Shown in pieces: positions 38,487 through 59,182 of a stretch of 64,000 nt of DNA (positions within the stretch are counted from its first letter, which is position 1; each line of letters begins with the position of its first letter). The stretch is from Pelagibius sp. GTDB taxonomy: Bacteria > Pseudomonadota > Alphaproteobacteria > Kiloniellales > Kiloniellaceae. The notes below the pieces were generated by a model. That model did no database searches. It was not told where the DNA came from and worked only from the letters and a program-made list of their open reading frames with translations. The translations under genes were made by a program, and so were the position numbers. The DNA lies in the NCBI RefSeq assembly GCF_028281305.1, contig NZ_JANQKD010000023.1, positions 139,598 through 203,597 on the forward strand. The letters run 5' to 3'.

Positions 38487-38489
38487 GCC

Positions 38490-43246: not shown

Positions 43247-43323
43247 ACCCCGCGTCTCAAGAGGCGGGGCGCAGACGGGCCGGCTCACGCCGGCCCGCTT
43301 CTCACATGGCATCGGAGGGCGGG

Positions 43324-44120: not shown

Positions 44121-44121
44121 C

Positions 44122-44571: not shown

Positions 44572-44594
44572 CCGCTGATGAGAGAGGACGAGAC

Positions 44595-44750
44595 GTGGCA
44601 AACAAAACGATGGTGACCATGAGTAATCCCAAGGCCAAGGGGCCCGTCGAGGTGCTGGCGAGCGAGGTCCCGACCATGGAGAACCGAGGCTGGTCCAAAG
44701 TCGGAAACGACGGCCCGCCACAGAAGAAACCCGCAAGGAAGGAGGGCTAG
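44595..44750 (+). CDS. Small hypothetical protein (51 aa)
   Basis: GTG behind GAGGA; fills the gap before the tail tube gene. Confidence 0.5.
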   Translation: MANKTMVTMSNPKAKGPVEVLASEVPTMENRGWSKVGNDGPPQKKPARKEG

Positions 44751-44753
44751 GCC

Positions 44754-45146
44754 ATGGCCAATCACGTAGGCAACGAGGGCATCGTCCAGATCGGGGCAGC
44801 TGTCGTGGCGGAGGTTCGCTCCTGGTCGATCGAGGAAACGGCGGAAACGGCCGACACCTCTGTCATGGGGCCGGTCGCGCGAACCCACAAGGTGACCAAA
44901 ACAACTTGGTCGGGATCGCTGGAGTGCTTCTGGGACGAAACCGACTCGACCGGACAGGGCGCCCTGACAAAAGGGGCATCGGTCCAGCTTGACGTGTATC
45001 CGGAGGGCAATACGTCCGGCGACGTTCACTATGTCGGAACCGCCACGGTGACGCAGGTAACCAAACAGGCGGCGCACGACGGCATCGTCGAGGCGGCCTT
45101 TACCTTCCAGGGCAACGGCGACCTTGCCGAACAGACGGTCGTTTGA
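44754..45146 (+). CDS. Major tail tube protein
   Basis: VRSWSIEET...DTSVMG...WSGSLECFWD...FTFQGNGDL. Confidence 0.82.
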   Translation: MANHVGNEGIVQIGAAVVAEVRSWSIEETAETADTSVMGPVARTHKVTKTTWSGSLECFWDETDSTGQGALTKGASVQLDVYPEGNTSGDVHYVGTATVTQVTKQAAHDGIVEAAFTFQGNGDLAEQTVV

Positions 45147-45157
45147 GGAGCTTCAAC

Positions 45158-45532
45158 ATGGCGCAGCGACGAAAGAGCGAAGACTCCAAGCACCACCCGA
45201 TCTTCCATCAGGCGGTCGAGCAGTTCAAAGGCCAGGAAATCACGGTTATCGAGGTCGAGGAATGGGGCATCGATGGGAAGCCCGCCATCATCCACGCGAC
45301 TCCGATGAACCTGGACGAGAAGAATCGGGTCAACCGCTACGGTTCCAAGGAGGATCTCTCGGCTCTCTGCGAGGTCCTGATCCTGAAGGCCCGCGACGAG
45401 AACGGCGACCCGATCTTCACGCGCGACCTCAAGCCGCGGATGATGCGCGAGCTTGACCCGGATGTGATCGCATCCGTCGTCAAGCAGATCGTCGGCGAAG
45501 AAGAGGACCCGGATCAAGCGGCGGGAAACTGA
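45158..45532 (+). CDS. Tail assembly chaperone (gpG-like)
   Basis: Between the tube and tape measure genes; ends in slippery G GGA AAC before TGA. Confidence 0.8.
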   Translation: MAQRRKSEDSKHHPIFHQAVEQFKGQEITVIEVEEWGIDGKPAIIHATPMNLDEKNRVNRYGSKEDLSALCEVLILKARDENGDPIFTRDLKPRMMRELDPDVIASVVKQIVGEEEDPDQAAGN

Positions 45533-45669
45533 GGGCCGACCCGGACCTCCTGATGGTCTTTCATCTCGCCGCGATGCTCGGACGCACGGTCGGGGAGCTG
45601 GTGCAGACCCTGACCGTCGCGGAGTTCAACTACTGGGTCGGCTATTTCAAAGTGAAGAACGGCAAATAG
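45523..45669 (+). other. -1 programmed frameshift and gpT-like extension
   Basis: GGGAAAC at 45523-45529; the -1 frame reads GKLRADPDLLMVFHLAAMLGRTVGELVQTLTVAEFNYWVGYFKVKNGK* and ends 3 nt before the TMP start. Confidence 0.85.
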
Positions 45670-45672
45670 GCT

Positions 45673-47556
45673 ATGGCAATTTCGCTCGGCAAATCGCTGA
45701 AGTTCTCGATCCTCGGCAAGGACAAGTCCGCCGCGGCGATGAATTCGGTGAAGCGTGGACTCTCGGGCCTGAAGTCCGCGATGGGCGCGGTGATGACTGC
45801 GACCAGGGCGGTTGCGACAGCCGGCGCGGCCCTGGTGGCCGGTTTTGTGGCCCTGATTGCCAAGACAGAGGCGGCAACGGATCGGATCGGCAAACTATCG
45901 ACCCGCCTCGGGGCCAGTACCGAGGCGCTGTCCCAGTACGAGTTCGTCGCCAAGCGCAGCAACGTTGCTTTCGAGGCCCTGACCCAGGGCTGGCAGCGCA
46001 TGACGCGGCGGATCTCCGAGGCGGCGAACGGCACCGGCGAGGCCAAGGACGCGCTGCGGGAACTCGGTCTGTCCGCTACGGATCTGGAGCGCCTGCGTCC
46101 GGAGGAGCAGTTCGAGGTTCTGGCCGATGCCTTGGCCGGCGTTGAAGGGCAGGCGGACCGCGTGCGCCTGGCTATGAAGCTCTTTGACAGTGAGGGCGTC
46201 GCGCTCCTGCAGACCATGAAAGGCGGGTCGGCAGCGATCCGCGAGATGCGGGCTGAGGCAGATGCGCTGGGCGTGACCATCACCCAGGAGATGGCTGAAG
46301 CAGCGGCCCGGTCGCGCGACCAGATGGTCCGCCTGGAAGCGGCCTTCAGGGGACTCACCATCGCGGTCGTGAATGCGCTGGGTCCGGCCCTGACGCAACT
46401 GACGATCTGGCTGTCAGAGATGGTGCCCCGGGCGGTTCAGTTTCTGCACGAAACCCTGTTGAACATGCGGATCAACATCCTGGCCGACGCACAGGCCATC
46501 GTCGATGGCATCGCCTCGATGTTGGACGCCCTGGCCGCGCTGCCGGAGTTCGCCGGGGGTCACTTCTTCGAGGAGCAGGCCCTGGCGCTGAAGCTGTTCT
46601 CTATCGAACTGGGGTCCATGCGCTACGAGGCGGAACTCGCGCTGCAGACCTTCAAGGAGGGCGTGCCGGCGGTCAGCGAGTTCGGGCAGGGCTTCGAGGA
46701 TCTGGCGGGCAGCGTCGGGAAGGTGGGGATCGAGGCCAAGGACCTGAAGCGCGACTTCGACGCCATGCTGAAGACCCGCGATCAGTATCTCCGGGGGCTG
46801 GAAAACGAAGCCGAAGCCGTCCGGCGCGCCGTAGAGACGCCGATCGAGGCCTACAACCGCCAGATCGAAAAGCTCAAGCAACTGCGCGACGAGGGACTGA
46901 TCACGCAGGAGACCTTCGGCCGCGCTACCAAGCAGGCGGAGGAGACGCTCAAGAAGGAGCAGGAGGCACTGGAGGGAGTGCGCAAAGAAATGGACCTGCT
47001 GACGGAGGCCGTGCGCACCGGAGACCGGGCGCTTTCCGGGTCCATGAACACGCTCCGCGACTGGGGCCGGCTGGCACTGGACATCATCCATAAGATCATC
47101 CAGGCCATGGTCTCCGTCCCAAAGCAGGGCGGCGGCGGGTTTAAGCTCGGCGACATTGGCGGCATCATTCTCAATCTGGGGTCTTCAGTCTTCAGCGGCG
47201 GGTCTCTTGGGCCGCAGTTCACGGGGTCGAACATCCAGGCGCAGGGGAGCTTCGCCACGGGCGGGTCCTTCACGGTCGGCGGCTCCGGTGGAACCGACAG
47301 CCAGACCGTCGCCTTCAAGGCAACACCCGGCGAGCGTGTGGACGTCCTCACGCCCGGTCAGCAGCGCGCGCAGGCGGGTATGGGCGGGACAACGGTCTAC
47401 ATCGACGCCCGGGGCAGCAACGGCGATGCGGCCGTCGAGGAAGCGGTGCGCCGCGGGATCGCCAGGGCGGCCCCGGGCCTGATCAATGCCTCGGTCGAGA
47501 CAGTCCGGGGAGAGCGGCAGCGCGACCCGCGGTTCTTCGGCTCGCAGGTGGCCTAA
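45673..47556 (+). CDS. Tape measure protein (627 aa)
   Basis: Ala/Leu-rich helical sequence, IGKLSTRLG, FATGGSFTVGG...PGE C-terminal motif; follows the chaperone. Confidence 0.92.
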   Translation: MAISLGKSLKFSILGKDKSAAAMNSVKRGLSGLKSAMGAVMTATRAVATAGAALVAGFVALIAKTEAATDRIGKLSTRLGASTEALSQYEFVAKRSNVAFEALTQGWQRMTRRISEAANGTGEAKDALRELGLSATDLERLRPEEQFEVLADALAGVEGQADRVRLAMKLFDSEGVALLQTMKGGSAAIREMRAEADALGVTITQEMAEAAARSRDQMVRLEAAFRGLTIAVVNALGPALTQLTIWLSEMVPRAVQFLHETLLNMRINILADAQAIVDGIASMLDALAALPEFAGGHFFEEQALALKLFSIELGSMRYEAELALQTFKEGVPAVSEFGQGFEDLAGSVGKVGIEAKDLKRDFDAMLKTRDQYLRGLENEAEAVRRAVETPIEAYNRQIEKLKQLRDEGLITQETFGRATKQAEETLKKEQEALEGVRKEMDLLTEAVRTGDRALSGSMNTLRDWGRLALDIIHKIIQAMVSVPKQGGGGFKLGDIGGIILNLGSSVFSGGSLGPQFTGSNIQAQGSFATGGSFTVGGSGGTDSQTVAFKATPGERVDVLTPGQQRAQAGMGGTTVYIDARGSNGDAAVEEAVRRGIARAAPGLINASVETVRGERQRDPRFFGSQVA

Positions 47557-47562
47557 GCGACC

Positions 47563-48174
47563 GTGGCTGTCTTTCCGATTGAACTTCCGGTCGCACCGCA
47601 GCGGGTGCGCTGGACAGCGCGAGCGACGGTGGCGCGCACAGAATCGCCCTTTACGCTGCAGCAACAGGTCCAGGTCCACCAGGGCCAGCGCTGGGAGGTG
47701 GAACTGACCTATCCGCCGCTTGACCGCGCCGAGGCGGATGAACTGGCCTCGGCGCTACTGCTCCTGAACGGCGGAGCAGAGACCTTTCTCTTCGGCGACG
47801 TTCTCGGGGCCGCGCCGCGGGGCGTGGCTACGGGTATCCCGGTGGTGAGCGGGGCGGGGCAGATCGGGGATCTGCTGACCACCGCCGGCTGGACCGGCAG
47901 CACGGTTGAGATCATGGCTCCCGGCGATTTCTTCAGCCTCGGTGCCGGGGCGACAACGCGGTTGCACCGCGTGATCGAGACGGCGGACAGCGACGTGGCG
48001 GGCGTTGCGAACCTGCGCATCTGGCCGTCGCTTCGGGAAAGCCCGCTCGATACGGCACCGCTGGCCGTTAACAACGCGAAAGGCGTGTTCCGTCTGGCGG
48101 GCACCCTGGCGAGTTGGGAGATCGCGGAGACGAACCTCTACGGGATCCGCTTCTCGGCGGTGGAATCCCTCTAG
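47563..48174 (+). CDS. Distal tail protein
   Basis: TESPFTLQQQVQVHQGQRWEVELTYPPL, LRIWPSLR; directly after TMP. Confidence 0.75.
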   Translation: MAVFPIELPVAPQRVRWTARATVARTESPFTLQQQVQVHQGQRWEVELTYPPLDRAEADELASALLLLNGGAETFLFGDVLGAAPRGVATGIPVVSGAGQIGDLLTTAGWTGSTVEIMAPGDFFSLGAGATTRLHRVIETADSDVAGVANLRIWPSLRESPLDTAPLAVNNAKGVFRLAGTLASWEIAETNLYGIRFSAVESL

Positions 48175-48186
48175 AAAGGAGAACGC

Positions 48187-48333
48187 ATGGAAGGGCAGAA
48201 GGTGCCACCGCTCGAACAGCAGGTGGCGAAACTGGAACGCTATCTGGCGACCAACCCGAAAGGGCCAAAGACCAAGATGTATCGCGCGAAACTGAAGGCG
48301 CTGCGCCAGGAGATGGGAGGCGGGCATGCCTGA
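48187..48333 (+). CDS. Small hypothetical protein (48 aa)
   Basis: ATG behind AAGGAG; helical and basic. Confidence 0.5.
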   Translation: MEGQKVPPLEQQVAKLERYLATNPKGPKTKMYRAKLKALRQEMGGGHA

Positions 48334-48757
48334 CGTCCGGATCGCGAATGCTGCCGCGATTGCCATGTGCAACGCGGCTGTGGACCTGATCGACGGGGGT
48401 GCCGGTGCGGGCCTATTGAGGATCTATGATGGCGCGCGACCGGCGGACCCGGATGTCGCAGTTGGTGCGCAGGTTCTGCTTGCCGAACTCACAATGTCGG
48501 ATCCGGCATTCGGCAATGCCGTCGACGCGAACCCCGGAGGGCAGGCGACGGCCAACGCGATCACTGCAGACGGCAGCGCGAACGCCTCCGGGACGGCGAC
48601 GTGGTGCCGCATCGTCGACAGCAACGGCGTGGCGATCCTGGATGGGGACGTCGGGGCGACGGCCTCGGGAGCGTTTCTGGAACTGAACACGACTGCGATT
48701 ACCGCCGGGCAGAATGTCTCGGTGTCATCCATGACCTTGACGCAGCCGGAGAGCTAA
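48326..48757 (+). CDS. Putative tail-associated structural protein
   Basis: LRIYDGARPADPD...LLAELTMSDPAFG...GTATWCRI..S.G..ILDG family recurrent in tail modules. Confidence 0.65.
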   Translation: MPDVRIANAAAIAMCNAAVDLIDGGAGAGLLRIYDGARPADPDVAVGAQVLLAELTMSDPAFGNAVDANPGGQATANAITADGSANASGTATWCRIVDSNGVAILDGDVGATASGAFLELNTTAITAGQNVSVSSMTLTQPES

Positions 48758-48777
48758 CGCGCCGACCCGCCATCAGT

Positions 48778-49548
48778 TCAAGAGCGCACGGCGATAGCGT
48801 CGATGACGGATGGGTCGGGGAAAGCGTCGAGGCGAATGTGTATGGTCTCGCCAACGTGGGGGCGCGAGGCCCTGGAAGCATAAAGGATGTAGTCGCCGGA
48901 GAGCATCTGGTCCAGGCGCAGCCTGTCGGCTTCGTTGTGGTACTCCATGTAGATCGCTTTCGGGGCGTACGTCCCAAGGATGCTGCTGAGGATCGGGACC
49001 TCGCAGCCTTCGGTGTCGATCTTAAGGATATCGATGTGGTGCACGCCAAGGGCGGCGATTGCCGAGGCAGCATCGCGCAGGTCAATTCTCTCCGAAACGC
49101 TGGAGTTCAGGCGGGCGCGATGCACGGAGTTCGTGGTGTTCGTGTGCTTCCCGATGAAGAGTTCAGCTTCATGGTCGTGGTCGCTGAGTCCGAAGTTGGA
49201 GATGTGAATGCGACCGAAGGACTTGGTGTTGCTGCAGGCGTAATCATAGCTCTGTCGATGGGGCTCGAAGCCATAAATCTCGGCGCGGGGATAAACTTCT
49301 GCAAACCAGATGGCGGCTGCTCCCACGTTTGCGCCGACATCGACGACGACCGTTGCAGAGGACAGAAAGTCGATGGCCGGATAGGTGCGGCCACGCAAGG
49401 TTGCCTCAATCTCTGAACGGCTGGCTTGGTCGTAGCTGAAGGGTATCCGATTCCCACGAAACCGAATGTGGCTCGTTTCAATCTGAATTGGAAGTGATCT
49501 GGCGGTAATCATGCATGGATTGTGCGTTCCCGTTGAAGTTAGCGGCAA
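48778..49548 (-). CDS. FkbM family methyltransferase (antisense moron)
   Basis: VVDVGANVG, YGFEP, IDILKIDTEGCE; start uncertain. Confidence 0.9.
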   Translation of the reverse strand: MPLTSTGTHNPCMITARSLPIQIETSHIRFRGNRIPFSYDQASRSEIEATLRGRTYPAIDFLSSATVVVDVGANVGAAAIWFAEVYPRAEIYGFEPHRQSYDYACSNTKSFGRIHISNFGLSDHDHEAELFIGKHTNTTNSVHRARLNSSVSERIDLRDAASAIAALGVHHIDILKIDTEGCEVPILSSILGTYAPKAIYMEYHNEADRLRLDQMLSGDYILYASRASRPHVGETIHIRLDAFPDPSVIDAIAVRS

Positions 49549-49585
49549 TAGGAAAATGGCCCTAGGTCAAAAGGGGGTATAAAAG

Positions 49586-51106
49586 GTGGCTTTCGATCCG
49601 ATCGTCGATGTCTCCGGGTGTGTCCTCTGGTATGACGCCGATGACCTTGCGACCATCACCAAGGACGGCAGCGACATTGTCCAGCAATGGGACGATAAGT
49701 CGGGAGACAACAACCATGCCTCTCAGTCGTCCGCCAGCCAAAGACCGCTGTATGTGGCGTCTGGGATTGGCGGGCTGCCGTCAATCCAATTTGACGGATC
49801 GAACGACGAGTTGGATTACGACGCACCAACTGGTATCTCCGGTAGCCAAAATAGAACCGTCTTTGTCGTCTTTCAGAACGATGATGTCCTGGCCGATCAT
49901 GGCGTGTTGTCATTCGGGGACAACGCGACGCGGCAATCCTTTCACCTCGTATCTCGGTCCACTGACCGCTGGGGTGTGGGGCTTTGGGACGACGACTACG
50001 ATAGTACGACCCTGGTGCCTGGCACCTCGGCACGGGTTGGCGCCGCGAAGCTCGACGGCACGACTTTAGGCGACATCACGCTCTATCTCGACGGCACGGC
50101 AGAGAGCGCAAGCGGTGCAGCTGTCGTCAACACAGACAGCGGCTTCGGAGCCATACCCCGTGTGGGCTCGACGCACGGTGTCTCAAATCACGACGGCCTG
50201 ATTTCGGAAGTGCTGATCTACAACACAGCGCTCTCGGACGCCGACCGCCAATCGGTCGAAGGCTATCTGGCGCACAAGTGGGGTCTTGAGGGCAACCTGC
50301 CCAATGGCCACCCTTACAAGCTCGCACCGCCGGGCGCAGATCCCATCGGCCTGGCAACCGGTGGGCTTCCTGTCCTCGGCGGATCTGCTACTGGTTCTAC
50401 CGGGCTTGGAGGAGCTGCTGTTGCAGATCTGACCGCGCTGACCGGCACTGCTGATGGCCTTGTTCAAACGACTGCGACTGGTGCGGGTTCGATTGCACCG
50501 ATTGCGGGACGCGCCAACGGCGTCATCCTGGACTCGACGCGCCGAATCATGACGGATGCGATGGCGAGCGAGACGGCGCAGGCGGTCCTGGCACCGGTTC
50601 TCCTGGCGAAATTTTCTTTCGACGGCGGCGACCTCAGGCTCTGGACCGGTGTCGGCCCGACGGATTTCGATGCGGAGACGTACACGGGAGCAGGCACCTT
50701 CGGCGGAGTCGGTCCGGTTCGCGAAACGGAGTCGGTGCGTGCGACAGGGGCGTCGTTCTCGCTCTCGGGTGTGCCGACCGAGGTCGTCTCGCTGGCCTTG
50801 AACGAGGAATACCAGAATCGCACCGCGCGGCTCTGGCTGGGTTTGATGGACAGCACCAAGCCGGGCGCCGCGTTGATTCCGGATCCGGTTCTGCTGTTCA
50901 AGGGGCGCATGGATGTGATGCGCCACCGCAACCGCGCCGAGGACGCAGACGTGTCGCTGACGGCTGAGAACAGCCTGATCGACCTGGAGCGTCCAAGAGA
51001 GCGGCGCTATACCAGCCAGGACCAGGCCATCGACTATCCGGACGACAAGGGGCTGGAGTTCGTGCAGAGCCTCCAGGACAAGGAACTGTTGTGGGGGCGC
51101 GGATGA
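49586..51106 (+). CDS. LamG/ConA-like lectin domain fused to the baseplate hub (gpL-like) protein
   Basis: N-terminus LWYDADD...WDDKSG..NHA...FDG..D.L...GLISEVLIYNTALS..RQSVEGYLAHKWG; C-terminus LRLWTG...FKGRMD...SLTAEN.LIDLERPRERRYT.QDQ...YPDDKGLEFV. Confidence 0.75.
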   Translation: MAFDPIVDVSGCVLWYDADDLATITKDGSDIVQQWDDKSGDNNHASQSSASQRPLYVASGIGGLPSIQFDGSNDELDYDAPTGISGSQNRTVFVVFQNDDVLADHGVLSFGDNATRQSFHLVSRSTDRWGVGLWDDDYDSTTLVPGTSARVGAAKLDGTTLGDITLYLDGTAESASGAAVVNTDSGFGAIPRVGSTHGVSNHDGLISEVLIYNTALSDADRQSVEGYLAHKWGLEGNLPNGHPYKLAPPGADPIGLATGGLPVLGGSATGSTGLGGAAVADLTALTGTADGLVQTTATGAGSIAPIAGRANGVILDSTRRIMTDAMASETAQAVLAPVLLAKFSFDGGDLRLWTGVGPTDFDAETYTGAGTFGGVGPVRETESVRATGASFSLSGVPTEVVSLALNEEYQNRTARLWLGLMDSTKPGAALIPDPVLLFKGRMDVMRHRNRAEDADVSLTAENSLIDLERPRERRYTSQDQAIDYPDDKGLEFVQSLQDKELLWGRG

Positions 51107-51525
51107 ACCGCCTACCGGACTGGCAAAGCCGACTGGCAGACGCGATCAGGGCCGCTTCCGAGCGGCCCTTTTCTTATGGCGGCCATGACTGCTGTCTGGC
51201 GGTCTGCGATTGCGTCCTGGCCGAAACCGGGATCGACCTTGCCGACGACATCCGCGGCTATTGCGGCAAGTCCGAGGCAGTCGCCGTCCTCAAGCGCTAC
51301 GGTGGAGTGGCTGGGCTCTGTGAGACCAAGGCGAAGATTCACCGCTTGGCGGAGGTGCCGCCGCTTCAGGCGCAGCGCGGCGACGTCGTGATCACGTTGG
51401 AGCGCGGGCGCGACACCCTGGGGATCGTCGATCTTGGCGGCCGGGTGACGCTGTCGGCTGCAGCGCCGAAGGGCTGGGGCGAGCGGCCGTTGCGGGAAGC
51501 CTCACGCGCCTGGAGGATCGGCTGA
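51103..51525 (+). CDS. NlpC/P60-like tail tip protein (gpK-like/DUF6950)
   Basis: RLPDWQSRL...PFSYGGHDCCL...AQRGDVV. Confidence 0.8.
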   Translation: MNRLPDWQSRLADAIRAASERPFSYGGHDCCLAVCDCVLAETGIDLADDIRGYCGKSEAVAVLKRYGGVAGLCETKAKIHRLAEVPPLQAQRGDVVITLERGRDTLGIVDLGGRVTLSAAAPKGWGERPLREASRAWRIG

Positions 51526-53762
51526 TGCCGCCCGCCGCAGCTGTGGTGGCCGGTGCCGTCCTTGCCGGGGTCGGGTCCTTTGCGGCGGGCGCAACGATCT
51601 TCGGGCTTTCCGCCGGCCTGACGGCGGTGATCATCGGTGCCACAAACCTTGTCCTTGGCTTGGGTGCATCGTTCCTTGCAGAGAAGCCGAGTGTCGACCT
51701 CCCGAACCTGAGCAGCTTTACCGCGAGGGCGCAGAACCGGACCCAGACGCTGCGGCAGCCGATCACACCCAGGCGGCTGGTCTACGGCGAAGCCCGGGTT
51801 GCGGGGCCTATGATCTTCGCGGAGTCGACTGGGAACAACCGCTTCCTGCATCTGGTTGTGGCTCTTGGCCAAGGACCCTTCGAGGCCATCGACGAGGTCT
51901 GGCTGAATGCAGACCCGATCTTTTCCGACGACCTCGACAGCGACGGTCTGGTCACGGCGGGCAAGTACAAGAACAAGGTCCGCATCAAGAAGTACCTTGG
52001 GGAAGCCGATCAGGTTGCGGATCCGGATCTGGTCGACGAGGTCGCATCCTGGACGGCGGCACACCGCCTGCGCGGCATGGCCTACATCTACCTGCGACTG
52101 GAGTTCGACAGAGATCTTTTTCCGACCTCGATCCCGAACCCCTCTGCCTGGGTAAAGGGCAGGAAGGTGGCTGATGTTCGGCAGGGCGGGTCGCCTGTGG
52201 TGTGGACGCCAAATGCGGTGCTTTGCACCCGCGACTACATGCTGGATCAAACGCTGGGTCTTGGGGCCGGGCCCGACGAGTTCGACGACGATCAGGCGGC
52301 GGCCGGTGCGAACGTCTGCGACGAGTTCGTGACCGTGCTGGATGCGGACTTCACAGCGTCCGCTGTGTCCGAGGCGGACGATGCTATCGACCTGGACCTA
52401 CCACGGCTGTCGCTGCAGACGGGCGACGTTGTCCAGGTCTCCAGCACGGATGCTTTGCCGGCGGGACTGCAGGCCGGGATCAACTACTTCGCCATCCCGG
52501 TGCGCCGCCGGCAGACCGATCACAAGGACCCGAGGATCCGGCTGGCGGCTTCCTATGCCGATGCGCTGACCGGCACAGCGGTGGATCTGACGGATGCCGG
52601 TAGCGGCACCCTGACCGTGACCAAGAAGGGCGAACCGCGCTACGCCCTGTCGGGTGTGGTGGAAACCGACCGTCCACCCTCGTCGATCATCGAAGAGATG
52701 CTGACGGCGATGGGCGCGCGCGCCGTCTATGGCTCCGGGCAGTGGCGGGTACTCCCGGCGGCCTGGGCGTTGCCCTCGCTGTCCCTGGACGAGAACGATC
52801 TGCGAGGGCCGATCGAGGTCCAGACCAAGATCACGGGCCGGGACCGGTTCAACGCGGTCAAGGGGATCTTCGTTTCGCCGGAGCGCGACGGGCAGCCGGA
52901 CGACTATCCGCCCGCTGTCAATGCGCTCTACCAGGCGGCGGACGGTGGGCGGCGGAAGTTTCGGGAACTCAGTCTCCCCTTCACGACGCGCGCCAACCAG
53001 GCGCAGCGGCTGGCGAAGATCGCTCTGGAGCGTCACCGGCAGGAGATCAGCGTTACCGCCCGCTGGTCCTTGCGTTGCCTGCAGGTTCAGGCGGGGGACA
53101 GGGTGGAGTTGACCAACCAGACCTACGGCTGGGACCGCAAAGTCTTCGAGGTCGAAGCCTGGGCACTGATCTTCGAAGAGAGCGACAGCGACGCCCCGGC
53201 GCTTCTGGTCGAAATGGGGCTGCGGGAAACTGCGGCGGGCATCTTCGAGTTTGATTCCGGTTTGGAAGAAACGCGGGTGGATCTGGCGCCCGATACCAAC
53301 CTGCCGAACCCCTTCGACGTGGCGCAGCCGACCGGCATCGGCGTCTTTACCCAGATCACGCTGACGGCCGCAGGCGACATCGTCCGCAACATCCTGGTCA
53401 CCTGGATGCTGGCGGATGACTTCTACGTCGTCAACGGCGGTCACTACCAACTGCGGTTCAAGAAGTCGAGCGCGACCTTCTGGCAGCAGTCATGGACCAT
53501 CGACGGGGCCGACAACTCGGCACAGACGCCGCCGGTCAATCTGGACGAAAGCTACGACCTTGAGATCCGGTCGGTGAACCATCTGGGCATCACATCGCCC
53601 TATGCACGGGTCTTCGGCTACGTGGTCGGCTCCAGCGGGGCCGGCGTGACGTCGAAGGTGGATGAGGGTCTGGTGTCGGAGTCCGTGACCAACTTCGTGG
53701 ACGAGGGTCTGGTGTCGCAGGCGGTCACGGTGACGAACGACGAGGGAGCGATCGGCAGTTGA
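51525..53762 (+). CDS. Central tail fibre / host specificity protein (J-like)
   Basis: PRRLVYGEARVAGP, HRLRGMAYIYLR, NAVLCTRDYM, RFNAVKG, AQRLAKIALER, FN3-like C-terminus. Confidence 0.88.
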   Translation: MPPAAAVVAGAVLAGVGSFAAGATIFGLSAGLTAVIIGATNLVLGLGASFLAEKPSVDLPNLSSFTARAQNRTQTLRQPITPRRLVYGEARVAGPMIFAESTGNNRFLHLVVALGQGPFEAIDEVWLNADPIFSDDLDSDGLVTAGKYKNKVRIKKYLGEADQVADPDLVDEVASWTAAHRLRGMAYIYLRLEFDRDLFPTSIPNPSAWVKGRKVADVRQGGSPVVWTPNAVLCTRDYMLDQTLGLGAGPDEFDDDQAAAGANVCDEFVTVLDADFTASAVSEADDAIDLDLPRLSLQTGDVVQVSSTDALPAGLQAGINYFAIPVRRRQTDHKDPRIRLAASYADALTGTAVDLTDAGSGTLTVTKKGEPRYALSGVVETDRPPSSIIEEMLTAMGARAVYGSGQWRVLPAAWALPSLSLDENDLRGPIEVQTKITGRDRFNAVKGIFVSPERDGQPDDYPPAVNALYQAADGGRRKFRELSLPFTTRANQAQRLAKIALERHRQEISVTARWSLRCLQVQAGDRVELTNQTYGWDRKVFEVEAWALIFEESDSDAPALLVEMGLRETAAGIFEFDSGLEETRVDLAPDTNLPNPFDVAQPTGIGVFTQITLTAAGDIVRNILVTWMLADDFYVVNGGHYQLRFKKSSATFWQQSWTIDGADNSAQTPPVNLDESYDLEIRSVNHLGITSPYARVFGYVVGSSGAGVTSKVDEGLVSESVTNFVDEGLVSQAVTVTNDEGAIGS

Positions 53763-54439
53763 GCGAACAACGGCAAAAGCGGCGCGATGTCTGGGCGGTG
53801 GTCTCTAACTCGACGCCGACAGAAGGCGAGTTCTGGTACATCACCGACACACACAGCTGGGTCTTCGGTGACGGCTCGACGGTGGGCGGGATTCCGTTCG
53901 GGCCGGGAACCGGTGATTTCAAGAGCACAGCCAAGGCGACCGTCGATCCGGGCTGGCTGCTGGCGGATGGCCGGACCATCGGTTCGCCGACATCGGGCGC
54001 AAACCTGACCGGAGATCAATATCGCGCGCTCTTTACCTGCCTGTGGAACGATTGGTCCGAGACTACAGCGCCCGTGACTCCTGGCGGTCGTGGGGTCTCC
54101 GCTGATCAGGATTGGGCAGACAACAAGGCGATCAGGATCCCGAACCGCCGGGGGTACGCGGAGGTCGGGGCAGATGCGTCGCCGCCGCTGACGGCGCGGG
54201 CCGTCGGCGCGATCTGGGGTGAGGAAGAGGTCACCATTGAGCGCACCCATCTGCCCGCCGAAGGGCTGGACCTGACCCTGCCCCGCAAGTTCGGGAGCAA
54301 CGAAGGCAGCGGCGTTGGCTTCTCCAAGGACAACGGCACCACCAGCGACGGCACGGGCACAACCGAGAACATGGGCGACGGCACCACCCTCCCGATCCAG
54401 CCGCCGTCCATGGCGGCCTATATCTGGATCAAGCTTTGA
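53759..54439 (+). CDS. Tail fibre with Mtd_N-like N-terminus and tail collar domain
   Basis: RRD...TPTEGEFWYITDTHSWVFGDGSTVGG (Mtd N-terminal pattern); GWLLADGRTIG...YRALF...RIPNRRG collar; GEEEVTI...HLP. Confidence 0.78.
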   Translation: MSEQRQKRRDVWAVVSNSTPTEGEFWYITDTHSWVFGDGSTVGGIPFGPGTGDFKSTAKATVDPGWLLADGRTIGSPTSGANLTGDQYRALFTCLWNDWSETTAPVTPGGRGVSADQDWADNKAIRIPNRRGYAEVGADASPPLTARAVGAIWGEEEVTIERTHLPAEGLDLTLPRKFGSNEGSGVGFSKDNGTTSDGTGTTENMGDGTTLPIQPPSMAAYIWIKL

Positions 54440-54472
54440 CGGCGATCCACCGCCGTCGACCGGGTGACACGG

Positions 54473-54495
54473 GCCGCCTCCGGGGCGGCTTTTTT
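54473..54495 (+). terminator. Intrinsic terminator after the tail genes
   Basis: GCCGCC-TCCGG-GGCGGC followed by TTTTTT. Confidence 0.75.
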
Positions 54496-54527
54496 CTTGC
54501 GATGCCAGAGGGTGAGGAGGTCTCCGA

Positions 54528-54791
54528 ATGGAGTGGGGCATAGACGGCGGCGACATCCTGCAGGTCGCCGCCTTTCTTGTGGCGGCTGTGATTTTCGTTC
54601 TGCGGATCGATAAGCAGCTGGGGATCATGAAGGCGGAGATGAAGGCCTTGGAAGGCCGGGTGAACACACTGGAGGAAGGTCTTCGTGATGACGTGCGCGA
54701 GATCAAGGACACGATCAACGCAAACGCCCGCGACAGCAAAGACAATTTCAAGGCGGTCTTCGAACGCCTCGACCACAAGGCCGACAAGTGA
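54528..54791 (+). CDS. Holin-like 1-TM coiled-coil protein
   Basis: N-terminal TM and heptad repeats; immediately upstream of the endolysin. Confidence 0.55.
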   Translation: MEWGIDGGDILQVAAFLVAAVIFVLRIDKQLGIMKAEMKALEGRVNTLEEGLRDDVREIKDTINANARDSKDNFKAVFERLDHKADK

Positions 54792-54825
54792 CGGTCGTTT
54801 CTCAAAAACAGAAGGATGATTTGCG

Positions 54826-55251
54826 ATGATCACGATCACACAGCAAGACGTTGATGTCCTGGCGCGCACGGTCTACGGCGAGGCGCGCGGGGAGCAGATG
54901 CAGGGCAAGCTCGCCGTTGCCTACGTCATCATGAACCGTGTCCGCGCGGATCTCCACGGCGACGAAAAGCCGGATTGGTGGGGCGAGGGGATTGTCGGTG
55001 TCTGCCTGCGTGATCGCCAGTTCTCCTGCTGGAACCACAACGACCCGAACCGCACGAAACTGATGACGGTCGGACCTGACGACAAGGCTTTCGCCGAGTG
55101 CATCGGTGCGGCGTTGATGGCGATCCACCGGTTGCAGCCGGATCCGACCGATGGAGCCGACCATTACTTGGCTTCGCACGCCTGGGCGGATTGGGCTAAG
55201 GGCAGGCCTTTCGTCTCCATCGGCCGTCATCGCTTCTTCCACCTGAACTGA
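54826..55251 (+). CDS. Endolysin, cell wall hydrolase (SleB/Hydrolase_2)
   Basis: LARTVYGEARGE (catalytic Glu), AVAYVIMNRV, QFSCWN..DPN, GADHY. Confidence 0.92.
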   Translation: MITITQQDVDVLARTVYGEARGEQMQGKLAVAYVIMNRVRADLHGDEKPDWWGEGIVGVCLRDRQFSCWNHNDPNRTKLMTVGPDDKAFAECIGAALMAIHRLQPDPTDGADHYLASHAWADWAKGRPFVSIGRHRFFHLN

Positions 55252-55868
55252 TGCCGGCACAGAGAGGCCGCCACCTGCGGCCGAGCGTGCGGACGGTCGC
55301 GACGCCGTCCGAGGCCAAGCGGCTCTATAAGCATCCACGCTGGCGGCGGCTGGATCTCGACCGTGCGCGGCGGTCGCAGCTGATCGGCTCGTGCGAGGAT
55401 CTGCGGGTCGTCGACGAGTGGTTCGCATGGCTGCAGGAACGCTGGCGTCACCGCGACGAGGGCCAGAACATCTGGGCCAACATGATCCGCCGCTGGCGCA
55501 AGGTCGCCGGGCAGTGGGTCCTCCTTTGGTTCGGCGACTGCGAGGACTGGTGCCTGCTGCTGATCCTGCATCTGGTCACGCGCGCCGGCTTCCCTCGCGG
55601 GGCGCTGCGGCTCTGCGCCTGTGAGATCCCGCGCCCGGGCAGAAAGCCGGAGGGCCACATGGTCGTGGCCGTCGCAACCGACCGCGGGACCCTGGTCTGC
55701 GATCCGCTGCAGGACCGTCCGCGATGGGCCGACGATCCGGTTTTCGCGGGCCATGACTGGCATTCGATCGAGGACCCGCCGGAGATCCCTGGCCCGGGCC
55801 GGGGTGTCTGGCGGTCCCTGCGCGTCGTCACCCTGGAGGACGCGCTGCGTTTTCATCCGCAAAGCTGA
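55251..55868 (+). CDS. Transglutaminase-like cysteine protease (BTLCP/C93-like), copy 2
   Basis: GDCEDW (Cys), FPRGALRL, GHMVVAV (His), LVCD (Asp); no signal peptide seen; coupled to the endolysin stop. Confidence 0.78.
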   Translation: MPAQRGRHLRPSVRTVATPSEAKRLYKHPRWRRLDLDRARRSQLIGSCEDLRVVDEWFAWLQERWRHRDEGQNIWANMIRRWRKVAGQWVLLWFGDCEDWCLLLILHLVTRAGFPRGALRLCACEIPRPGRKPEGHMVVAVATDRGTLVCDPLQDRPRWADDPVFAGHDWHSIEDPPEIPGPGRGVWRSLRVVTLEDALRFHPQS

Positions 55869-55879: not shown

Positions 55880-56803
55880 ATGGATGAGTTTTTGACACCG
55901 GAACTGATCGGGGGCCTGACCGGCGGCCTGATCGTAGCAATTGGCTTGTTCATCTTCCGAGGTGTGGCCTGGATCAAAGACTTTGTCACAGGGACACCGA
56001 CGAAGCTTGACGACAAGGTCTACAACAAGGTGGTCGAGGCATTTCGGGAGGCAGGCGAGATCTCGCTGCCCGAGAGCATCGACCAAGGGAAGGGTGTGAG
56101 AATCGACAATCTGGTGCTGGCCAAGCGCGATTCCGGAAACAAGGACTCCAGCCCACGCTCGCCGGCAATGGTCGCGGCGGCAGCACTGCTGATGGCTTTG
56201 ACCCTGACCGCGTGCGATCCGTTCAAAGCCTTCATTCCGAGCGGCTCGGTGATCCAGAGCGGCGAGGCGGCCGAAGACGAAAGCGCCCAAAAGCGGCTGG
56301 CGGACCAGATCTTCGGTGCGGTCTCAGGCCAGGAGGGGCGAACGGCACGCCTGACGCTGGTCATGGCGACCTACAGCGAACTGGCCGCCGACCGCGTGAC
56401 CCGCTTCGATCAGGACCAGGCGCCCACGGTGCTGGGCCGCTTCGCGGAGTTGCGGGGCATGCTGGCCCGCTTCCAGACCACGCCGGACGCTGTGTTCGTC
56501 GAGACCAACCTCCGCTACGCGAGCTTGGCGATAGCCTCGATTGTCATCGATACGGGCCTGGACCGGGCCGGAGCGCTCGCGGGCAACGTGATCGGAGGCC
56601 TGAGTGTCAGCGGCCTGGGCGACCGGGCCAAGGTCGTGGCCCGTCAAGCGGCCCTGACAGAGGCGCTCCTCGCCGACGTGCGGGCGGCGACGGCCAGGAT
56701 GCGCGACGATCCATCCTCGATTGCCGGCATCCAGCAGGCCGCCCTGGCCCGCTTCACGGCCAACGAGAACCGCATCAAAGCGATCCTGGGCCTGATCGCC
56801 TAG
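55880..56803 (+). CDS. N-terminal TM/holin-like module joined to an internal-lipobox helical domain (spanin-like?)
   Basis: TM at residues 9-27, TPTKLDDK motif, internal MVAAAALLMALTLTAC lipobox at about residues 97-112. Confidence 0.55.
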   Translation: MDEFLTPELIGGLTGGLIVAIGLFIFRGVAWIKDFVTGTPTKLDDKVYNKVVEAFREAGEISLPESIDQGKGVRIDNLVLAKRDSGNKDSSPRSPAMVAAAALLMALTLTACDPFKAFIPSGSVIQSGEAAEDESAQKRLADQIFGAVSGQEGRTARLTLVMATYSELAADRVTRFDQDQAPTVLGRFAELRGMLARFQTTPDAVFVETNLRYASLAIASIVIDTGLDRAGALAGNVIGGLSVSGLGDRAKVVARQAALTEALLADVRAATARMRDDPSSIAGIQQAALARFTANENRIKAILGLIA

Positions 56804-56955: not shown

Positions 56956-57312
56956 CTATCTCACTTCTTGTGCTGCTTTCAGGTGTTCTCCTGTGCCGCA
57001 TGAAATCCCGGTGTTCCATGGCTGCTTGCCGCCCTTCAGGACGACGAGATCCGCCAAGGGCACGTTGACGACGTCCCCTAGGACCTTGGGGGCATTATGT
57101 GACTGACACTTTAGGTACCATTCTTGAACTGACGGCCCATCCCCGCGGTCGATGGATTCAAGAATCTGGTACTTGAACTTCCCGCCCTTTTCGATTGGGT
57201 CGTGAATGCACCAACGCATGTTGTTTTTGAGGTCGACGAAATCGCAAGCGAGAACACTGGCTGGCGCCAGCAGTCCAACAGCAAGTGCACAAATACAAAA
57301 GGCTCTTCGCAT
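56956..57312 (-). CDS. Small secreted Cys-containing protein
   Basis: MRRAFCICALAVGLLAPASVLA-C signal peptide; ATG behind GGAGG; low GC; same strand as and just downstream of the TIR gene. Confidence 0.65.
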   Translation of the reverse strand: MRRAFCICALAVGLLAPASVLACDFVDLKNNMRWCIHDPIEKGGKFKYQILESIDRGDGPSVQEWYLKCQSHNAPKVLGDVVNVPLADLVVLKGGKQPWNTGISCGTGEHLKAAQEVR

Positions 57313-57350
57313 CGCATCCTCCTTTGATCTGCATCTTCGGTTGGATAACG

Positions 57351-57848
57351 CTAATTGGCCTTGCGGATTCTGATCGCCTCTTCGACTGCATTGCTGAGAT
57401 GCTTGGAGATCCAGTCGTAGCGTTCTTTGCTGGTGGAGCCTCCTGGGGTGTAGCACTTCACGATCGCAGACAGCTTCTTTCCTGTGTTTCCATACCCAAT
57501 GAAGTCGAATGGGTTCTTACCCACCGATGCAGTGTCCCCAGCCAAGTCGGTCAATCCGTGGATCCGGATGCCCACGACGCCCATGTTGCTGTCCCACGAT
57601 CGGATAATTTCGTGATTGATCCACTTCCGGTTAGCCGTATTGGCCCCGACCAAAACGACCGTGCAGCTTCGACCTGACATCTGCCTGCCGATCCAGTTCC
57701 GGATCGCTTGGTCTCCACCTTTGGTGACGCTCTCCCAATCGTTGTCAGAGACAGGTGCATTGCCTTCAATAACACCGATGTTTCGAACCTTTGCCGCCCG
57801 GGTGCTGTCAGGTTTGTAGTGGAAACTGTAGAAGCACTTCCTCTTCAT
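57351..57848 (-). CDS. ThsB-like TIR domain protein (DUF1863)
   Basis: CFYSFHY..D, DNDWE.V, IRNWI..QM.GRSCTVVLVG..TA.RKWI.HEI with the catalytic Glu retained, VVGIRIHGL, GKNPF. Confidence 0.9.
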   Translation of the reverse strand: MKRKCFYSFHYKPDSTRAAKVRNIGVIEGNAPVSDNDWESVTKGGDQAIRNWIGRQMSGRSCTVVLVGANTANRKWINHEIIRSWDSNMGVVGIRIHGLTDLAGDTASVGKNPFDFIGYGNTGKKLSAIVKCYTPGGSTSKERYDWISKHLSNAVEEAIRIRKAN

Positions 57849-57859
57849 TCACCAACCCC

Positions 57860-58261
57860 CTAAAGCAGCGCAAGCATTACAACGACAACAGCGAAGAGCA
57901 GTCCGCCGTGAAATGCGACAAGTGTTGCAGAGAAGATGACACGGGCTAGGGCGGGGACCTCTCGATCGACTGACTTTGTGCTCATCGAAAAGTCGATTGC
58001 GTCATCTTCCATCTTCCGCACCCTGTCGTATAGCGCTCGAAACATCTTCTCTTGCCGCAAGAAGTATCCATCGAGACCCCAGAATACTATTACGGGAATA
58101 TAAGCCAAGAATATAAAACTTCGGTTTGAATTCTCTGCCGCTAGTGCGGAGAGTGCCGCGACCAACACCACGCTCCATCCCTTAAGCAAGAAGGAGCTCT
58201 GTGCAAGGCGATTGATTACACCTTGGACAAACTCCATGTGCTTGATTTTACGATGTTCCAT
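57860..58261 (-). CDS. Small multi-TM membrane protein (putative TIR-associated effector)
   Basis: KHMEFVQGVINRLAQSSFLLKGWSV, FWGLDGYFLRQEKMFRALYD; three hydrophobic segments; 11 nt upstream of the TIR gene. Confidence 0.8.
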   Translation of the reverse strand: MEHRKIKHMEFVQGVINRLAQSSFLLKGWSVVLVAALSALAAENSNRSFIFLAYIPVIVFWGLDGYFLRQEKMFRALYDRVRKMEDDAIDFSMSTKSVDREVPALARVIFSATLVAFHGGLLFAVVVVMLALL

Positions 58262-58357
58262 CGCGCCCTCCCACTTGACACGGCAGTGTAGCAGTCCAGT
58301 CAGATCCCAGAAAACTAGCCTCTTGTACATGGTTTGTTCTGGTGCGAAGATATCTCA

Positions 58358-58591
58358 ATGCACGAGACCTACCAGCCCGCTGATCCTAAAGACGTGGTGC
58401 AGTCGATCGCCATGGCGTTGCAGCTCAGAGTGCCGCAGGTTTTAAAGGTGAAGGATGCCAGCGACCGCGAGCGCATGGCCCGGGCGATTGCCGTTCATCT
58501 GGAACTGTGCGGCTACAAGATTTGCAAAAGGCCGTGGGATCTGCCCAGTCAGAGTGTCCTGGCGGGGCCAAAGGGCGAGACGCAGCGATGA
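58358..58591 (+). CDS. Hypothetical protein
   Basis: 77-aa ORF divergent from the TIR cassette; RERMARAIAVHLELCGY. Confidence 0.5.
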   Translation: MHETYQPADPKDVVQSIAMALQLRVPQVLKVKDASDRERMARAIAVHLELCGYKICKRPWDLPSQSVLAGPKGETQR

Positions 58592-58970
58592 CGGTCTTGC
58601 AGGCCTGGCGCTCATCTTTGGCATCGAGGCGCAGCTTTGCCATTTGTCCAGATGTCAGTTGCGGCGGCGGTATACCCGGCTTTCAGTGCTATCTCACTAA
58701 TGCTGAAAGAGAGCCGCTTTTTTTCGACCTGATTGTCCAGTTGGCGGTGGCTAACAGTGCGAACCTGAAGCGCTGTGGCTACTGTGGCCTCGTATACGAG
58801 CGAGCGATCCCTGACCGACTGCTTGGCCATCTACTTGACGGTGTCGAGGGCAGAGTATGGCGACCATTGAAGCTGCGCTACTAACCGTCTTACCCGATGC
58901 GGGTACGGTCCAAGTCTTGGCTGTTCGTGTGGAATGAACTCGACGCCAATGCGGAACCTAGCGAAAACAG

Positions 58971-58992: not shown

Positions 58993-59039
58993 GTTCCTTC
59001 GCCGTTCTGCACTTTTCTGCGCGGACCTGCACTTTGGGC

Positions 59040-59068
59040 TTGCGCGACCCCTCGGCAAGACGCTAGGA
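59040..59068 (+). promoter_or_regulatory. Putative sigma70 promoter of tRNA-Ser
   Basis: TTGCGC-N17-CTAGGA about 20 nt upstream of the tRNA. Confidence 0.5.
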
Positions 59069-59089
59069 AAACTGCGCTTTTCCCGGCGA

Positions 59090-59182
59090 GGACAGGTGGC
59101 CGAGTGGCTGAAGGCGCTCCCCTGCTAAGGGAGTATGTGGTTAAGAGCTGCATCGAGGGTTCGAATCCCTCCCTGTCCGCCA
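59090..59182 (+). tRNA. tRNA-Ser(GCT)
   Basis: GGACAGG/CCTGTCC acceptor stem, TGGCCGAGTGG D arm, CTCCC-CTGCTAA-GGGAG anticodon arm, long variable arm, GGTTCGAATCC, encoded CCA. Confidence 0.97.

What the first reader, a model, noticed from the sequence alone, without database searches (positions are those of the whole stretch)
56956..58261. Candidate non-canonical Thoeris-like defence cassette: small TM effector + ThsB-like TIR + secreted protein, no ThsA
Seen: three tightly spaced minus-strand genes (gaps 11 and 38 nt), visibly lower in GC than the phage core, sit after the lysis cassette and oppose late transcription, the usual moron position. They encode a 133-aa protein with three hydrophobic segments, a TIR with the conserved WI.HEI glutamate, and a 118-aa signal-peptide protein with several Cys. 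Known: ThsB TIRs make NAD-derived signals that activate an effector (SIR2-SLOG, TM-Macro or caspase-like). None of these domains is present here. Inference: the tiny membrane protein is a minimal signal-gated or TIR-gated pore effector, and the secreted protein may be a periplasmic sensor or modulator. This would be a prophage-borne anti-phage system of non-standard architecture.
Basis: partly seen in the sequence, partly recalled or inferred. Interest (0 to 1): 0.82.

Follow-up and report, generated by a model that had tools for sequence, protein, structure and literature searches.

The report
Prophage-borne type V Thoeris (ThsF–ThsB)
The small membrane protein and the TIR protein are an ordinary member of the recently described type V Thoeris anti-phage system, sitting at the end of a prophage. 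The third gene is an unrelated orphan lipoprotein-like gene.

Summary
The three minus-strand genes exist exactly as described: gaps of 11 and 38 nt, lower GC, and a position after the lysis genes of a roughly 40-kb prophage beside tRNA-Ser.

The pair is not a new architecture.
- The 133-aa membrane protein is 46% identical over its full length (E 3e-43) to the gene directly downstream of the experimentally validated type V Thoeris ThsB of Bacillus thuringiensis DAR 81934, that is, to ThsF.
- Both proteins match PADLOC's candidate system PDC-M50.
- The 165-aa TIR is 64.5% identical to TIRs that Yirmiya et al. (bioRxiv, Dec 2025) list as "DUF2270 – Type V".

The pairing is conserved. A same-strand TIR gene lies next to ThsF in at least 57 of 80 genome loci from many phyla, and in all 5 complete viral contigs.

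The third gene is an ORFan. It has one homolog anywhere, not next to a TIR, and is absent from all 86 related loci. It is not a system component.

The signal molecule for this TIR clade is unknown. It is probably 3'cADPR, but this is unproven.

Verdict: a new member of a known kind, of low interest.

The parts
57860..58261 (-). thsF: 133-aa, three-TM effector of type V Thoeris (PADLOC PDC-M50A; phrog_19896)
   Evidence: 46% identity, E 3e-43, full length to the gene directly downstream of the validated B. thuringiensis DAR 81934 ThsB. PDLC04686 at 4.5e-50. phrog_19896 at 1.6e-36. Three hydrophobic segments. AF2 pLDDT 93. GAGGG RBS 4 nt before the ATG.
57351..57848 (-). thsB: 165-aa DUF1863-type TIR protein, the predicted phage sensor and signal synthase; catalytic Glu80 lies in WINHEI
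   Evidence: Pfam ThsB_TIR 3.5e-25. PADLOC ThsB PDLC00433 at 2.3e-64 and PDC-M50B at 6.1e-62. 64.5% identical to Table S1 TIR 2595431376, labelled 'DUF2270 - Type V'. PDB 8wcf_A at 1e-34 and BcThsB 6lhy/9b7d at 2e-19, with the Glu aligned.
56956..57312 (-). Co-oriented 118-aa ORFan with a signal peptide and lipobox-like VLAC (Cys23). It is adjacent to the Thoeris pair but is not a conserved part of it.
   Evidence: AGGAGG RBS. N-terminal hydrophobic segment and 6 Cys. No Pfam, PADLOC or PHROG hit. One homolog only, with no TIR upstream. Absent from 86 related loci.
54826..55251 (+). Context: prophage endolysin (Hydrolase_2/SleB type), the last identifiable late gene before the cassette
   Evidence: PHROG endolysin families at 1e-17. 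PF07486 in the Logan gene calls.
59090..59182 (+). Context: tRNA-Ser(GCT) at the right edge of the strain-variable (prophage) segment
   Evidence: ARAGORN. Metagenome contigs break at 59093, and a second contig shares only 59027-59093 with the window.

Best explanation
The thsF (57860-58261) and thsB (57351-57848) pair is a type V Thoeris anti-phage system. It is carried as a moron at the right end of a roughly 40-kb temperate prophage in an uncultured bacterium from a coral metagenome.

Inferred mechanism, by homology to the validated B. thuringiensis system:
1. On infection by another phage, the TIR protein ThsB is triggered. It uses its catalytic Glu80 to convert NAD+ into a cyclic ADP-ribose-type signal, most likely 3'cADPR.
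2. The signal binds positively charged pockets formed by the cytoplasmic N-terminal helix and the TM2-TM3 linker of the three-TM protein ThsF. ThsF is predicted to be a ring-shaped homo-oligomer.
3. ThsF then compromises the membrane. This stops growth or kills the cell before the invading phage completes replication, which protects the lysogen population and the resident prophage.

Shown here: homology, conserved gene pairing, and intact catalytic and family-conserved residues.

Inferred, not shown: the identity of the signal, oligomerisation, membrane disruption and protection.

The downstream 118-aa gene is a separate, lineage-specific gene for a lipoprotein-like secreted protein. It may be co-transcribed. 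It could be a surface exclusion factor, but there is no evidence for that.
For: ThsF identity:
- The window protein is 46% identical (E 3e-43, residues 1-133) to L086:4773-5198. That is the 141-aa gene immediately after the 100%-identical copy of the validated B. thuringiensis DAR 81934 type V ThsB.
- IMG ids 2624526259 and 2624526260 are consecutive in Table S2.
- Both proteins hit the same PADLOC model, PDC-M50A PDLC04686.

ThsB:
- Pfam ThsB_TIR and PADLOC ThsB/PDC-M50B matches.
- 64.5% identity to a Table S1 TIR labelled 'DUF2270 - Type V'. Another such TIR is 82% identical to the TIR beside ThsF in L075.
- The catalytic Glu is aligned with that of BcThsB.

Linkage:
- A TIR lies directly downstream on the same strand in 49 of 80 genome loci by phmmer.
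- This rises to at least 57 with Pfam TIR_2 hits, and to 61 of 80 with iterated HMMs.
- The pair is present in all 5 complete IMG/VR loci and on Priestia, Klebsiella, Terribacillus and Desulforapulum plasmids.

Mechanism in the homolog (paper):
- ThsB alone makes 3'cADPR on infection.
- Added 3'cADPR is toxic only when the system is present.
- The Tad1 sponge abolishes defence.
- AF3 predicts a heptameric channel with positive pockets.

Family conservation: conserved positions include R18, K27, R75, R82, D64 and E71, and the window protein keeps them.

Shared signal: ThsF sequence identity is the same within and between TIR partner classes (0.55-0.60). These classes include BcThsB-like TIRs, and BcThsB makes 3'cADPR. 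This argues for one shared signal.

Prophage context. Prophage depth equals host depth, 34 versus 35-40.
Against: - No experiment exists on this clade. The window's TIR belongs to the paper's cluster 2661146773, which also holds type XI TIRs that produced none of the known signals.
- One validated type V system (Bacillus sp. 1NLA3E) was not activated by added 3'cADPR. A Vibrio cholerae type V system gave no defence in E. coli.
- Neither the window ThsF nor the validated B.t. ThsF reaches the Pfam DUF2270 threshold by hmmscan.
- The window ThsF departs from its close subfamily at F38S and W105L.
- The prophage borders were not resolved. The cassette could be a small islet between the prophage and tRNA-Ser rather than phage DNA proper.
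Confidence: 0.82

Rival explanations
1. Same type V architecture, but this ThsB clade (DUF1863-type, cluster 2661146773) makes a signal other than 3'cADPR, and this ThsF is tuned to that signal.
For: The same TIR cluster contains type XI (HIT hydrolase) TIRs, for which no known TIR product was detected. The Bacillus sp. 1NLA3E type V effector was not triggered by 3'cADPR. The window ThsF has two subfamily-atypical residues, F38S and W105L.
Against: ThsF sequences do not segregate by TIR partner class. Identity is 0.55-0.60 both within and between classes, and the classes include BcThsB-like partners, whose prototype makes 3'cADPR. The broadly conserved charged positions are retained.
Confidence: 0.3
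2. A three-gene system in which the 118-aa secreted or lipoprotein-like protein is a periplasmic sensor or modulator of the TM-TIR pair.
For: Same strand, a 38-nt gap, a strong RBS, no terminator-like site between thsB and gene 3, and the same low-GC block.
Against: There is only one homolog in 5.8 billion clusters, and its upstream DNA encodes no TIR. Gene 3 is absent from 80 genome loci and 6 viral loci with ThsF. Validated type V systems work as two genes.
Confidence: 0.04
3. The TIR is the toxic effector, depleting NAD+, and the membrane protein is the sensor or anchor. This would not be a signalling Thoeris.
For: Many bacterial TIRs act as NADase effectors, and the paper itself raises this caveat for unverified configurations.
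Against: In the homologous B.t. system, exogenous 3'cADPR alone triggers toxicity, and a 3'cADPR sponge blocks defence. SLOG-ThsF fusions exist (P0129), which fits ThsF being the signal-receiving output module. The TIR is a ThsB-type protein closely related to BcThsB.
Confidence: 0.06
4. An inert passenger: the cassette is a decaying or unexpressed remnant with no function in this lysogen.
For: No promoter-like site was found by the sigma-70 consensus scan. There are two atypical substitutions in ThsF. No expression data were available: only DNA runs were returned by the single kind='any' search, and no RNA-specific search was made.
Against: All three ORFs are intact with good RBSs. The catalytic Glu and broadly conserved ThsF residues are present. 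The sigma-70 scan is not informative for a 60+% GC organism.
Confidence: 0.05

Closest known systems
Type V Thoeris (ThsB + ThsF), Yirmiya et al., bioRxiv 2025, doi 10.64898/2025.12.03.692087; validated in B. thuringiensis DAR 81934 and Bacillus sp. 1NLA3E
   Same: A two-gene, adjacent, co-oriented TIR plus a roughly 135-aa three-TM effector. The window ThsF is 46% identical to B.t. ThsF. The window TIR clade is listed in the paper's Table S1 as 'DUF2270 - Type V'.
   Different: - The ThsB here is a 165-aa DUF1863-type TIR. It is not the 252-aa TIR of B.t. or the 1NLA3E type.
- Gene order is thsF then thsB, whereas B.t. has thsB then thsF.
- The system is located on a prophage.
- An extra ORFan lies downstream.
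- This clade has not been tested.
PADLOC-DB v2 candidate system PDC-M50, one of 145 untested 'phage defence candidates' (Payne et al., bioRxiv 2024, doi 10.1101/2024.01.29.577857)
   Same: Both genes match the A and B models at 4.5e-50 and 6.1e-62.
   Different: PDC-M50 was a prediction without a mechanism. No paper in the library mentions it by name.
Type I Thoeris (ThsA SIR2-SLOG + ThsB)
   Same: The ThsB family is the same: PADLOC ThsB1 model at 2.3e-64 and BcThsB structure at 2e-19. The signal is probably the same, 3'cADPR.
   Different: No SIR2-SLOG ThsA is present. The effector is a membrane protein, not an NADase.
Type II Thoeris (ThsC, TM + Macro) and type VII Thoeris (ThsH, SLATT)
   Same: A TIR signal activates a membrane-spanning effector.
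   Different: ThsF has no Macro or SLATT domain by Pfam. The signals differ: His-ADPR and canonical cADPR, respectively.
Small TM effectors of Pycsar (PycTM) and CBASS (from my own knowledge)
   Same: A minimal membrane protein with no recognisable ligand-binding domain, activated by a nucleotide second messenger, with an abortive-infection logic.
   Different: They are unrelated in sequence and the signal synthases differ (cyclases or CD-NTases, not TIR).

Membership tests
Type V Thoeris | Effector homologous to the validated ThsF | tested here: met
   46% identity, E 3e-43, over 133/141 aa to the gene downstream of B.t. DAR 81934 ThsB. Both hit the same PADLOC model.
Type V Thoeris | ThsB-type TIR protein with the catalytic glutamate | tested here: met
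   PF08937 at 3.5e-25. Glu80 in WINHEI aligns with WVRYEI of BcThsB. 64.5% identical to a Table S1 'Type V' TIR.
Type V Thoeris | TIR and effector adjacent in one operon, with the linkage conserved across taxa | tested here: met
   The gap is 11 nt. At least 57-61 of 80 genome loci and 5 of 5 complete viral loci have an adjacent same-strand TIR.
Type V Thoeris | Effector with three membrane-spanning helices | tested here: met
   Hydropathy segments at about 22-44, 49-69 and 104-133. AF2 helices with pLDDT 93.
Type V Thoeris | Effector forms a ring homo-oligomer with positively charged inter-protomer pockets | not testable with these tools
   Only monomer prediction was available. Conserved R18, K27, R75 and R82 are compatible with such pockets.
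Type V Thoeris | Infection-dependent 3'cADPR synthesis and signal-dependent effector toxicity | not testable with these tools
   This needs LC-MS and growth assays. The TIR cluster also contains producers of an unknown signal.
Type V Thoeris | Protection against phage | not testable with these tools
   This needs plaque assays.
Pfam PF10028 (DUF2270), the label the paper gives ThsF | Score at or above the gathering threshold (25 bits) | tested here: not met
   The window ThsF scores 15.8 bits, E 0.011. Matches are also weak in relatives: 9 of 24 relatives at E up to 1 (best 0.0022), and 1 of 77 at E up to 0.01 (best 1.4e-5). The validated B.t. ThsF does not hit the model either. This criterion therefore does not discriminate ThsF membership.
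PADLOC PDC-M50 | Both the A (TM) and B (TIR) models match adjacent genes | tested here: met
   PDC-M50A at 4.5e-50 and PDC-M50B at 6.1e-62.
Type I Thoeris | ThsA (SIR2-SLOG) next to ThsB | tested here: not met
   The neighbours are a phage gene, small ORFs and a tRNA. There is no tblastn hit to a SIR2 ThsA-like protein or a SLOG domain anywhere in the window (a limited test).
Type II / VII Thoeris | Macro or SLATT domain in the TM effector | tested here: not met
   There is no Macro or SLATT Pfam hit even at E up to 1.

The most novel reading that the evidence does not exclude
This widespread but untested ThsB clade (165-aa DUF1863-type) shares a TIR cluster with type XI Thoeris, whose signal is unknown. 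It might produce a not-yet-identified NAD-derived signal that this ThsF senses. The prophage might also have added a private lipoprotein as a second, surface-level exclusion layer co-expressed with it. That would make a two-layer defence moron.
Probability: 0.12. Interest if true: 0.55.

Novelty: new member of a known kind. Interest (0 to 1): 0.2.

Why it matters
The finding mainly validates the scan. A reader without tools correctly inferred a TIR-signal-gated minimal membrane effector, which is what was independently published as type V Thoeris.

The locus adds three small things:
- An example of type V Thoeris carried by a temperate phage at the classic moron position. ThsF relatives are rare in phages, found in 6 of 2.9 million IMG/VR contigs and 3 of 50,697 phage records.
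- Evidence that ThsF is a modular effector. It pairs with at least five ThsB clades with no sign of co-segregation in sequence identity.
- A pointer to an untested ThsB clade whose signal is not known.

None of this changes the current picture of Thoeris.

Tried and rejected
- **Pfam on ThsF.** Only sub-threshold DUF2270 and DUF3278 hits were found. I did not use them for the assignment.
- **Literature search for 'PDC-M50'.** No paper mentions it.
- **Foldseek of the ThsF AF2 monomer against the PDB.** There was no match below E 0.6, only generic helical hairpins.
- **AF2 of gene 3 from a single sequence.** The model had pLDDT 45 and was unusable, so I ran no fold search on it.
- **Search for att repeats.**
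  - The tRNA 3' end is not duplicated in the window.
  - There are no convincing direct repeats between the integrase side and the right end.
  - The 23-nt repeat at 19222/56849 lies inside the integrase ORF, so I rejected it as att.
- **Megablast of the phage half against 50,697 phage genomes.** No match.
- **Exact-protein look-up of the flanking M23 peptidase.** It is not on record.
- **Idea that gene 3 is part of the system.** I rejected it because of its absence elsewhere.
- **Idea that tRNA-Ser is a canonical 3'-end att site.** This is not supported, because the prophage lies on the 5' side of the tRNA.

Full report
**Observation**

- A 133-aa protein at 57860-58261.
- A 165-aa protein at 57351-57848.
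- A 118-aa protein at 56956-57312.

The intergenic gaps are 11 and 38 nt. Each start codon is preceded by a Shine-Dalgarno-like motif. No terminator-like site separates the genes; the only one found lies inside the TIR ORF.

GC is 0.50-0.55 over the cassette, against 0.63-0.70 in the upstream phage genes.

Hydropathy gives three hydrophobic segments in the first protein and an N-terminal one in the third. The third protein has six cysteines. Its VLAC motif at Cys23 fits a lipobox pattern; that reading rests on my own knowledge of the PROSITE rule.

The middle protein matches Pfam ThsB_TIR at 3.5e-25. Its WINHEI motif (Glu80) aligns with WVRYEI of B. cereus ThsB (6LHY/9B7D).

**Context**

PHROG and Pfam scans show a temperate prophage.
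- Two tyrosine integrases at 19076-20347 and 21497-22693 (-).
- A CI-like S24/HTH repressor at 25696-27078 (-).
- On the + strand from 36160 to 55251: large terminase, portal, protease, major head, tape measure, tail, J-like and fibre genes, and an endolysin.

The cassette is convergent with these late genes. About 830 nt to its right lies tRNA-Ser(GCT) at 59090-59182. A host M23 peptidase follows.

The window comes from a coral metagenome. In that sample:
- The prophage has the same depth as the host flank, 34 versus 35-40.
- The contig breaks at the tRNA, which has depth about 2200.
- A second contig shares only 59027-59093 with the window.

The strain-variable segment therefore probably ends near 59027, and the cassette lies inside it. 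I could not find att repeats. 'Prophage-borne' is likely but is not proven to the base.

**What the pair is**

PADLOC-DB v2 matches both genes to one candidate system. The TM protein matches PDC-M50A at 4.5e-50. The TIR matches PDC-M50B at 6.1e-62 and a ThsB model at 2.3e-64. PDCs are 145 untested 'guilt-by-embedding' predictions (doi 10.1101/2024.01.29.577857).

The decisive link came from Yirmiya et al. (doi 10.64898/2025.12.03.692087). They define type V Thoeris as ThsB plus ThsF. ThsF is an effector with three TM helices, labelled DUF2270.

They validated the system for B. thuringiensis DAR 81934.
- ThsB alone makes 3'cADPR on infection.
- Added 3'cADPR is toxic only to cells carrying the system.
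- The 3'cADPR sponge Tad1 abolishes defence.
- AF3 predicts a heptameric channel with positively charged pockets between protomers.

I took that ThsB sequence from their Table S1 and found the identical protein (P0271). I then fetched its contig (L086). The 141-aa gene 14 nt downstream has the consecutive IMG id given for the effector in Table S2. It is 46% identical to the window's TM protein over the full length (E 3e-43), and it hits the same PADLOC model.

Independently, the window TIR is 64.5% identical to a Table S1 TIR labelled 'DUF2270 - Type V'. Another such TIR is 82% identical to the TIR that follows a ThsF homolog in locus L075.

Homologs of the B.t.-type ThsB on Priestia, Klebsiella and Terribacillus plasmids also sit next to members of this TM family, in either gene order.

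**Linkage**

The TM family is large. There are 876 clusters at 90% identity. With the profile, 5182 representatives at 50% identity score E ≤ 0.001. The family spans many bacterial phyla and includes contigs labelled as archaeal MAGs.

Among 80 genome loci:
- A window-type TIR lies immediately downstream on the same strand in 49.
- One more was found with an HMM.
- At least 7 more downstream ORFs carry Pfam TIR_2.
- Iterated HMMs give 61 of 80 loci with an adjacent TIR.

Several of the remaining loci are truncated contigs or carry transposase, RM or SLOG genes next to ThsF.

All five complete IMG/VR loci have ThsF followed by a TIR.

**Gene 3**

- It has no Pfam, PADLOC or PHROG match.
- It has one homolog in the 5.8-billion-cluster database. 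That homolog is 71% identical, lies on a 756-nt contig, and is preceded by DNA that encodes no TIR.
- No relative occurs in any of the 86 ThsF loci.
- A single-sequence AF2 model was unusable, at pLDDT 45.

I conclude that gene 3 is a lineage-specific passenger, not a component of the system. A role in surface exclusion is speculation.

**Mechanism**

By homology, ThsB senses infection and makes a cADPR-type signal, and ThsF receives it and damages the membrane.

The AF2 monomer is confident (pLDDT 93). It shows a long helical hairpin (2-44 and 48-83) and a C-terminal TM helix (112-132). It has no solved structural relative.

The distribution of positive charge suggests an N-in topology. The N-terminal helix and the 69-111 linker would then be cytoplasmic. 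Family-conserved R18, K27, R75 and R82 lie there, and they are candidates for the ligand pocket. This is inference.

Two observations bear on the identity of the signal.
1. ThsF identity is the same within and between TIR partner classes (0.55-0.60). These classes are the window type, type III TIR2-like, BcThsB-like and 1NLA3E-like. This suggests one common ligand, and BcThsB makes 3'cADPR.
2. Against this, the window's TIR cluster also contains type XI TIRs with an unidentified product. One validated type V effector was not triggered by 3'cADPR.

I put 3'cADPR at roughly 55-60%.

**Membership and novelty**

The locus meets every sequence-level criterion of type V Thoeris and of PDC-M50. The biochemical criteria cannot be tested here.

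The locus fails the Pfam DUF2270 threshold, but so does the validated ThsF, so that label is not a usable test.

The locus is not type I: no SIR2 or SLOG was found. It is not type II or VII: there is no Macro or SLATT domain.

This is a new member of a known kind. Its minor points of interest are phage carriage, an untested ThsB clade and an orphan neighbour gene.

Noticed in passing
P0129 (378 aa) and P0127 (362 aa): These proteins have an N-terminal extension of about 230-245 residues fused to a C-terminal ThsF module. In P0129 the extension is a SLOG domain (LD_cluster2 at 1.7e-15). P0127 gave no Pfam hit, but its N-terminus looks similar to that of P0129 by eye. In some lineages the ThsF membrane module therefore appears to be driven by a dedicated SLOG sensor. 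One genome locus also has a SLOG gene next to ThsF.
   Followed up: partly
L001-L095: ThsF pairs with at least five different ThsB clades: window-type, type III TIR2-like, BcThsB-like, 1NLA3E-like and B.t.-like. ThsF sequence identity is the same within and between partner classes (0.55-0.60). The effector looks freely exchangeable. Gene order also varies (thsF-thsB or thsB-thsF).
   Followed up: partly
window 57860-58261 (ThsF residues 38 and 105): The window ThsF has Ser38 and Leu105. In the close subfamily alignment, 96-100% of the other sequences have Phe and Trp at these positions, and B.t. ThsF also has Phe and Trp. The two columns are less conserved in the broader 77-sequence set.
   Followed up: partly
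window 19076-20347 (-) and 21497-22693 (-): Two tyrosine-integrase genes lie about 1 kb apart at the left side of the prophage. This could mean two stacked elements or an integrase duplication. The true left border was not determined.
   Followed up: no
window 59027-59182: In the source metagenome the tRNA-Ser has a depth of about 2200, against about 34 for its flanks. All contigs break there. A 2,284-nt contig at half depth shares only 59027-59093 with the window. This is probably a related genome without this prophage end.
   Followed up: partly
window 55251-55868 (+) and 55880-56803 (+): Two genes follow the endolysin. One is a 205-aa protein with a weak Peptidase_C93 hit in precomputed calls. 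The other is a 307-aa protein with a hydrophobic N-terminus and no Pfam or PHROG hit. Their role in lysis is unclear.
   Followed up: no
window 58334-58591 (+) and 58612-58830 (-): Small ORFs lie between thsF and the tRNA. The 85-aa ORF, divergent from thsF, has only a weak Phage_gene29 hit (E 0.007). The 72-aa minus-strand ORF has no hit.
   Followed up: no
L086 (B. thuringiensis contig FNYB01000013.1): The validated type V Thoeris sits in a defence island next to an OLD/TOPRIM-AAA plus UvrD-helicase pair (Gabija-like) and a DAC-domain gene. B.t. ThsF has a weak hit to PF24838, 'octameric membrane protein family 8xMP' (E 0.012).
   Followed up: no
H26-H28, Vibrio phage 10N.286.55.*_PE00x (about 14.35 kb): The only hits to ThsF among 50,697 deposited phage genomes are partial matches (residues 6-82, 43% identity) in three small Vibrio cyclitrophicus 'PE' elements. 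These may be satellite-like elements carrying a truncated or divergent ThsF.
   Followed up: no
window 4796-5081 and 5556-5841: A 286-nt direct repeat at 74% identity, with copies 760 nt apart, lies in the host part of the window. This could be a duplicated gene segment. It was not examined.
   Followed up: no
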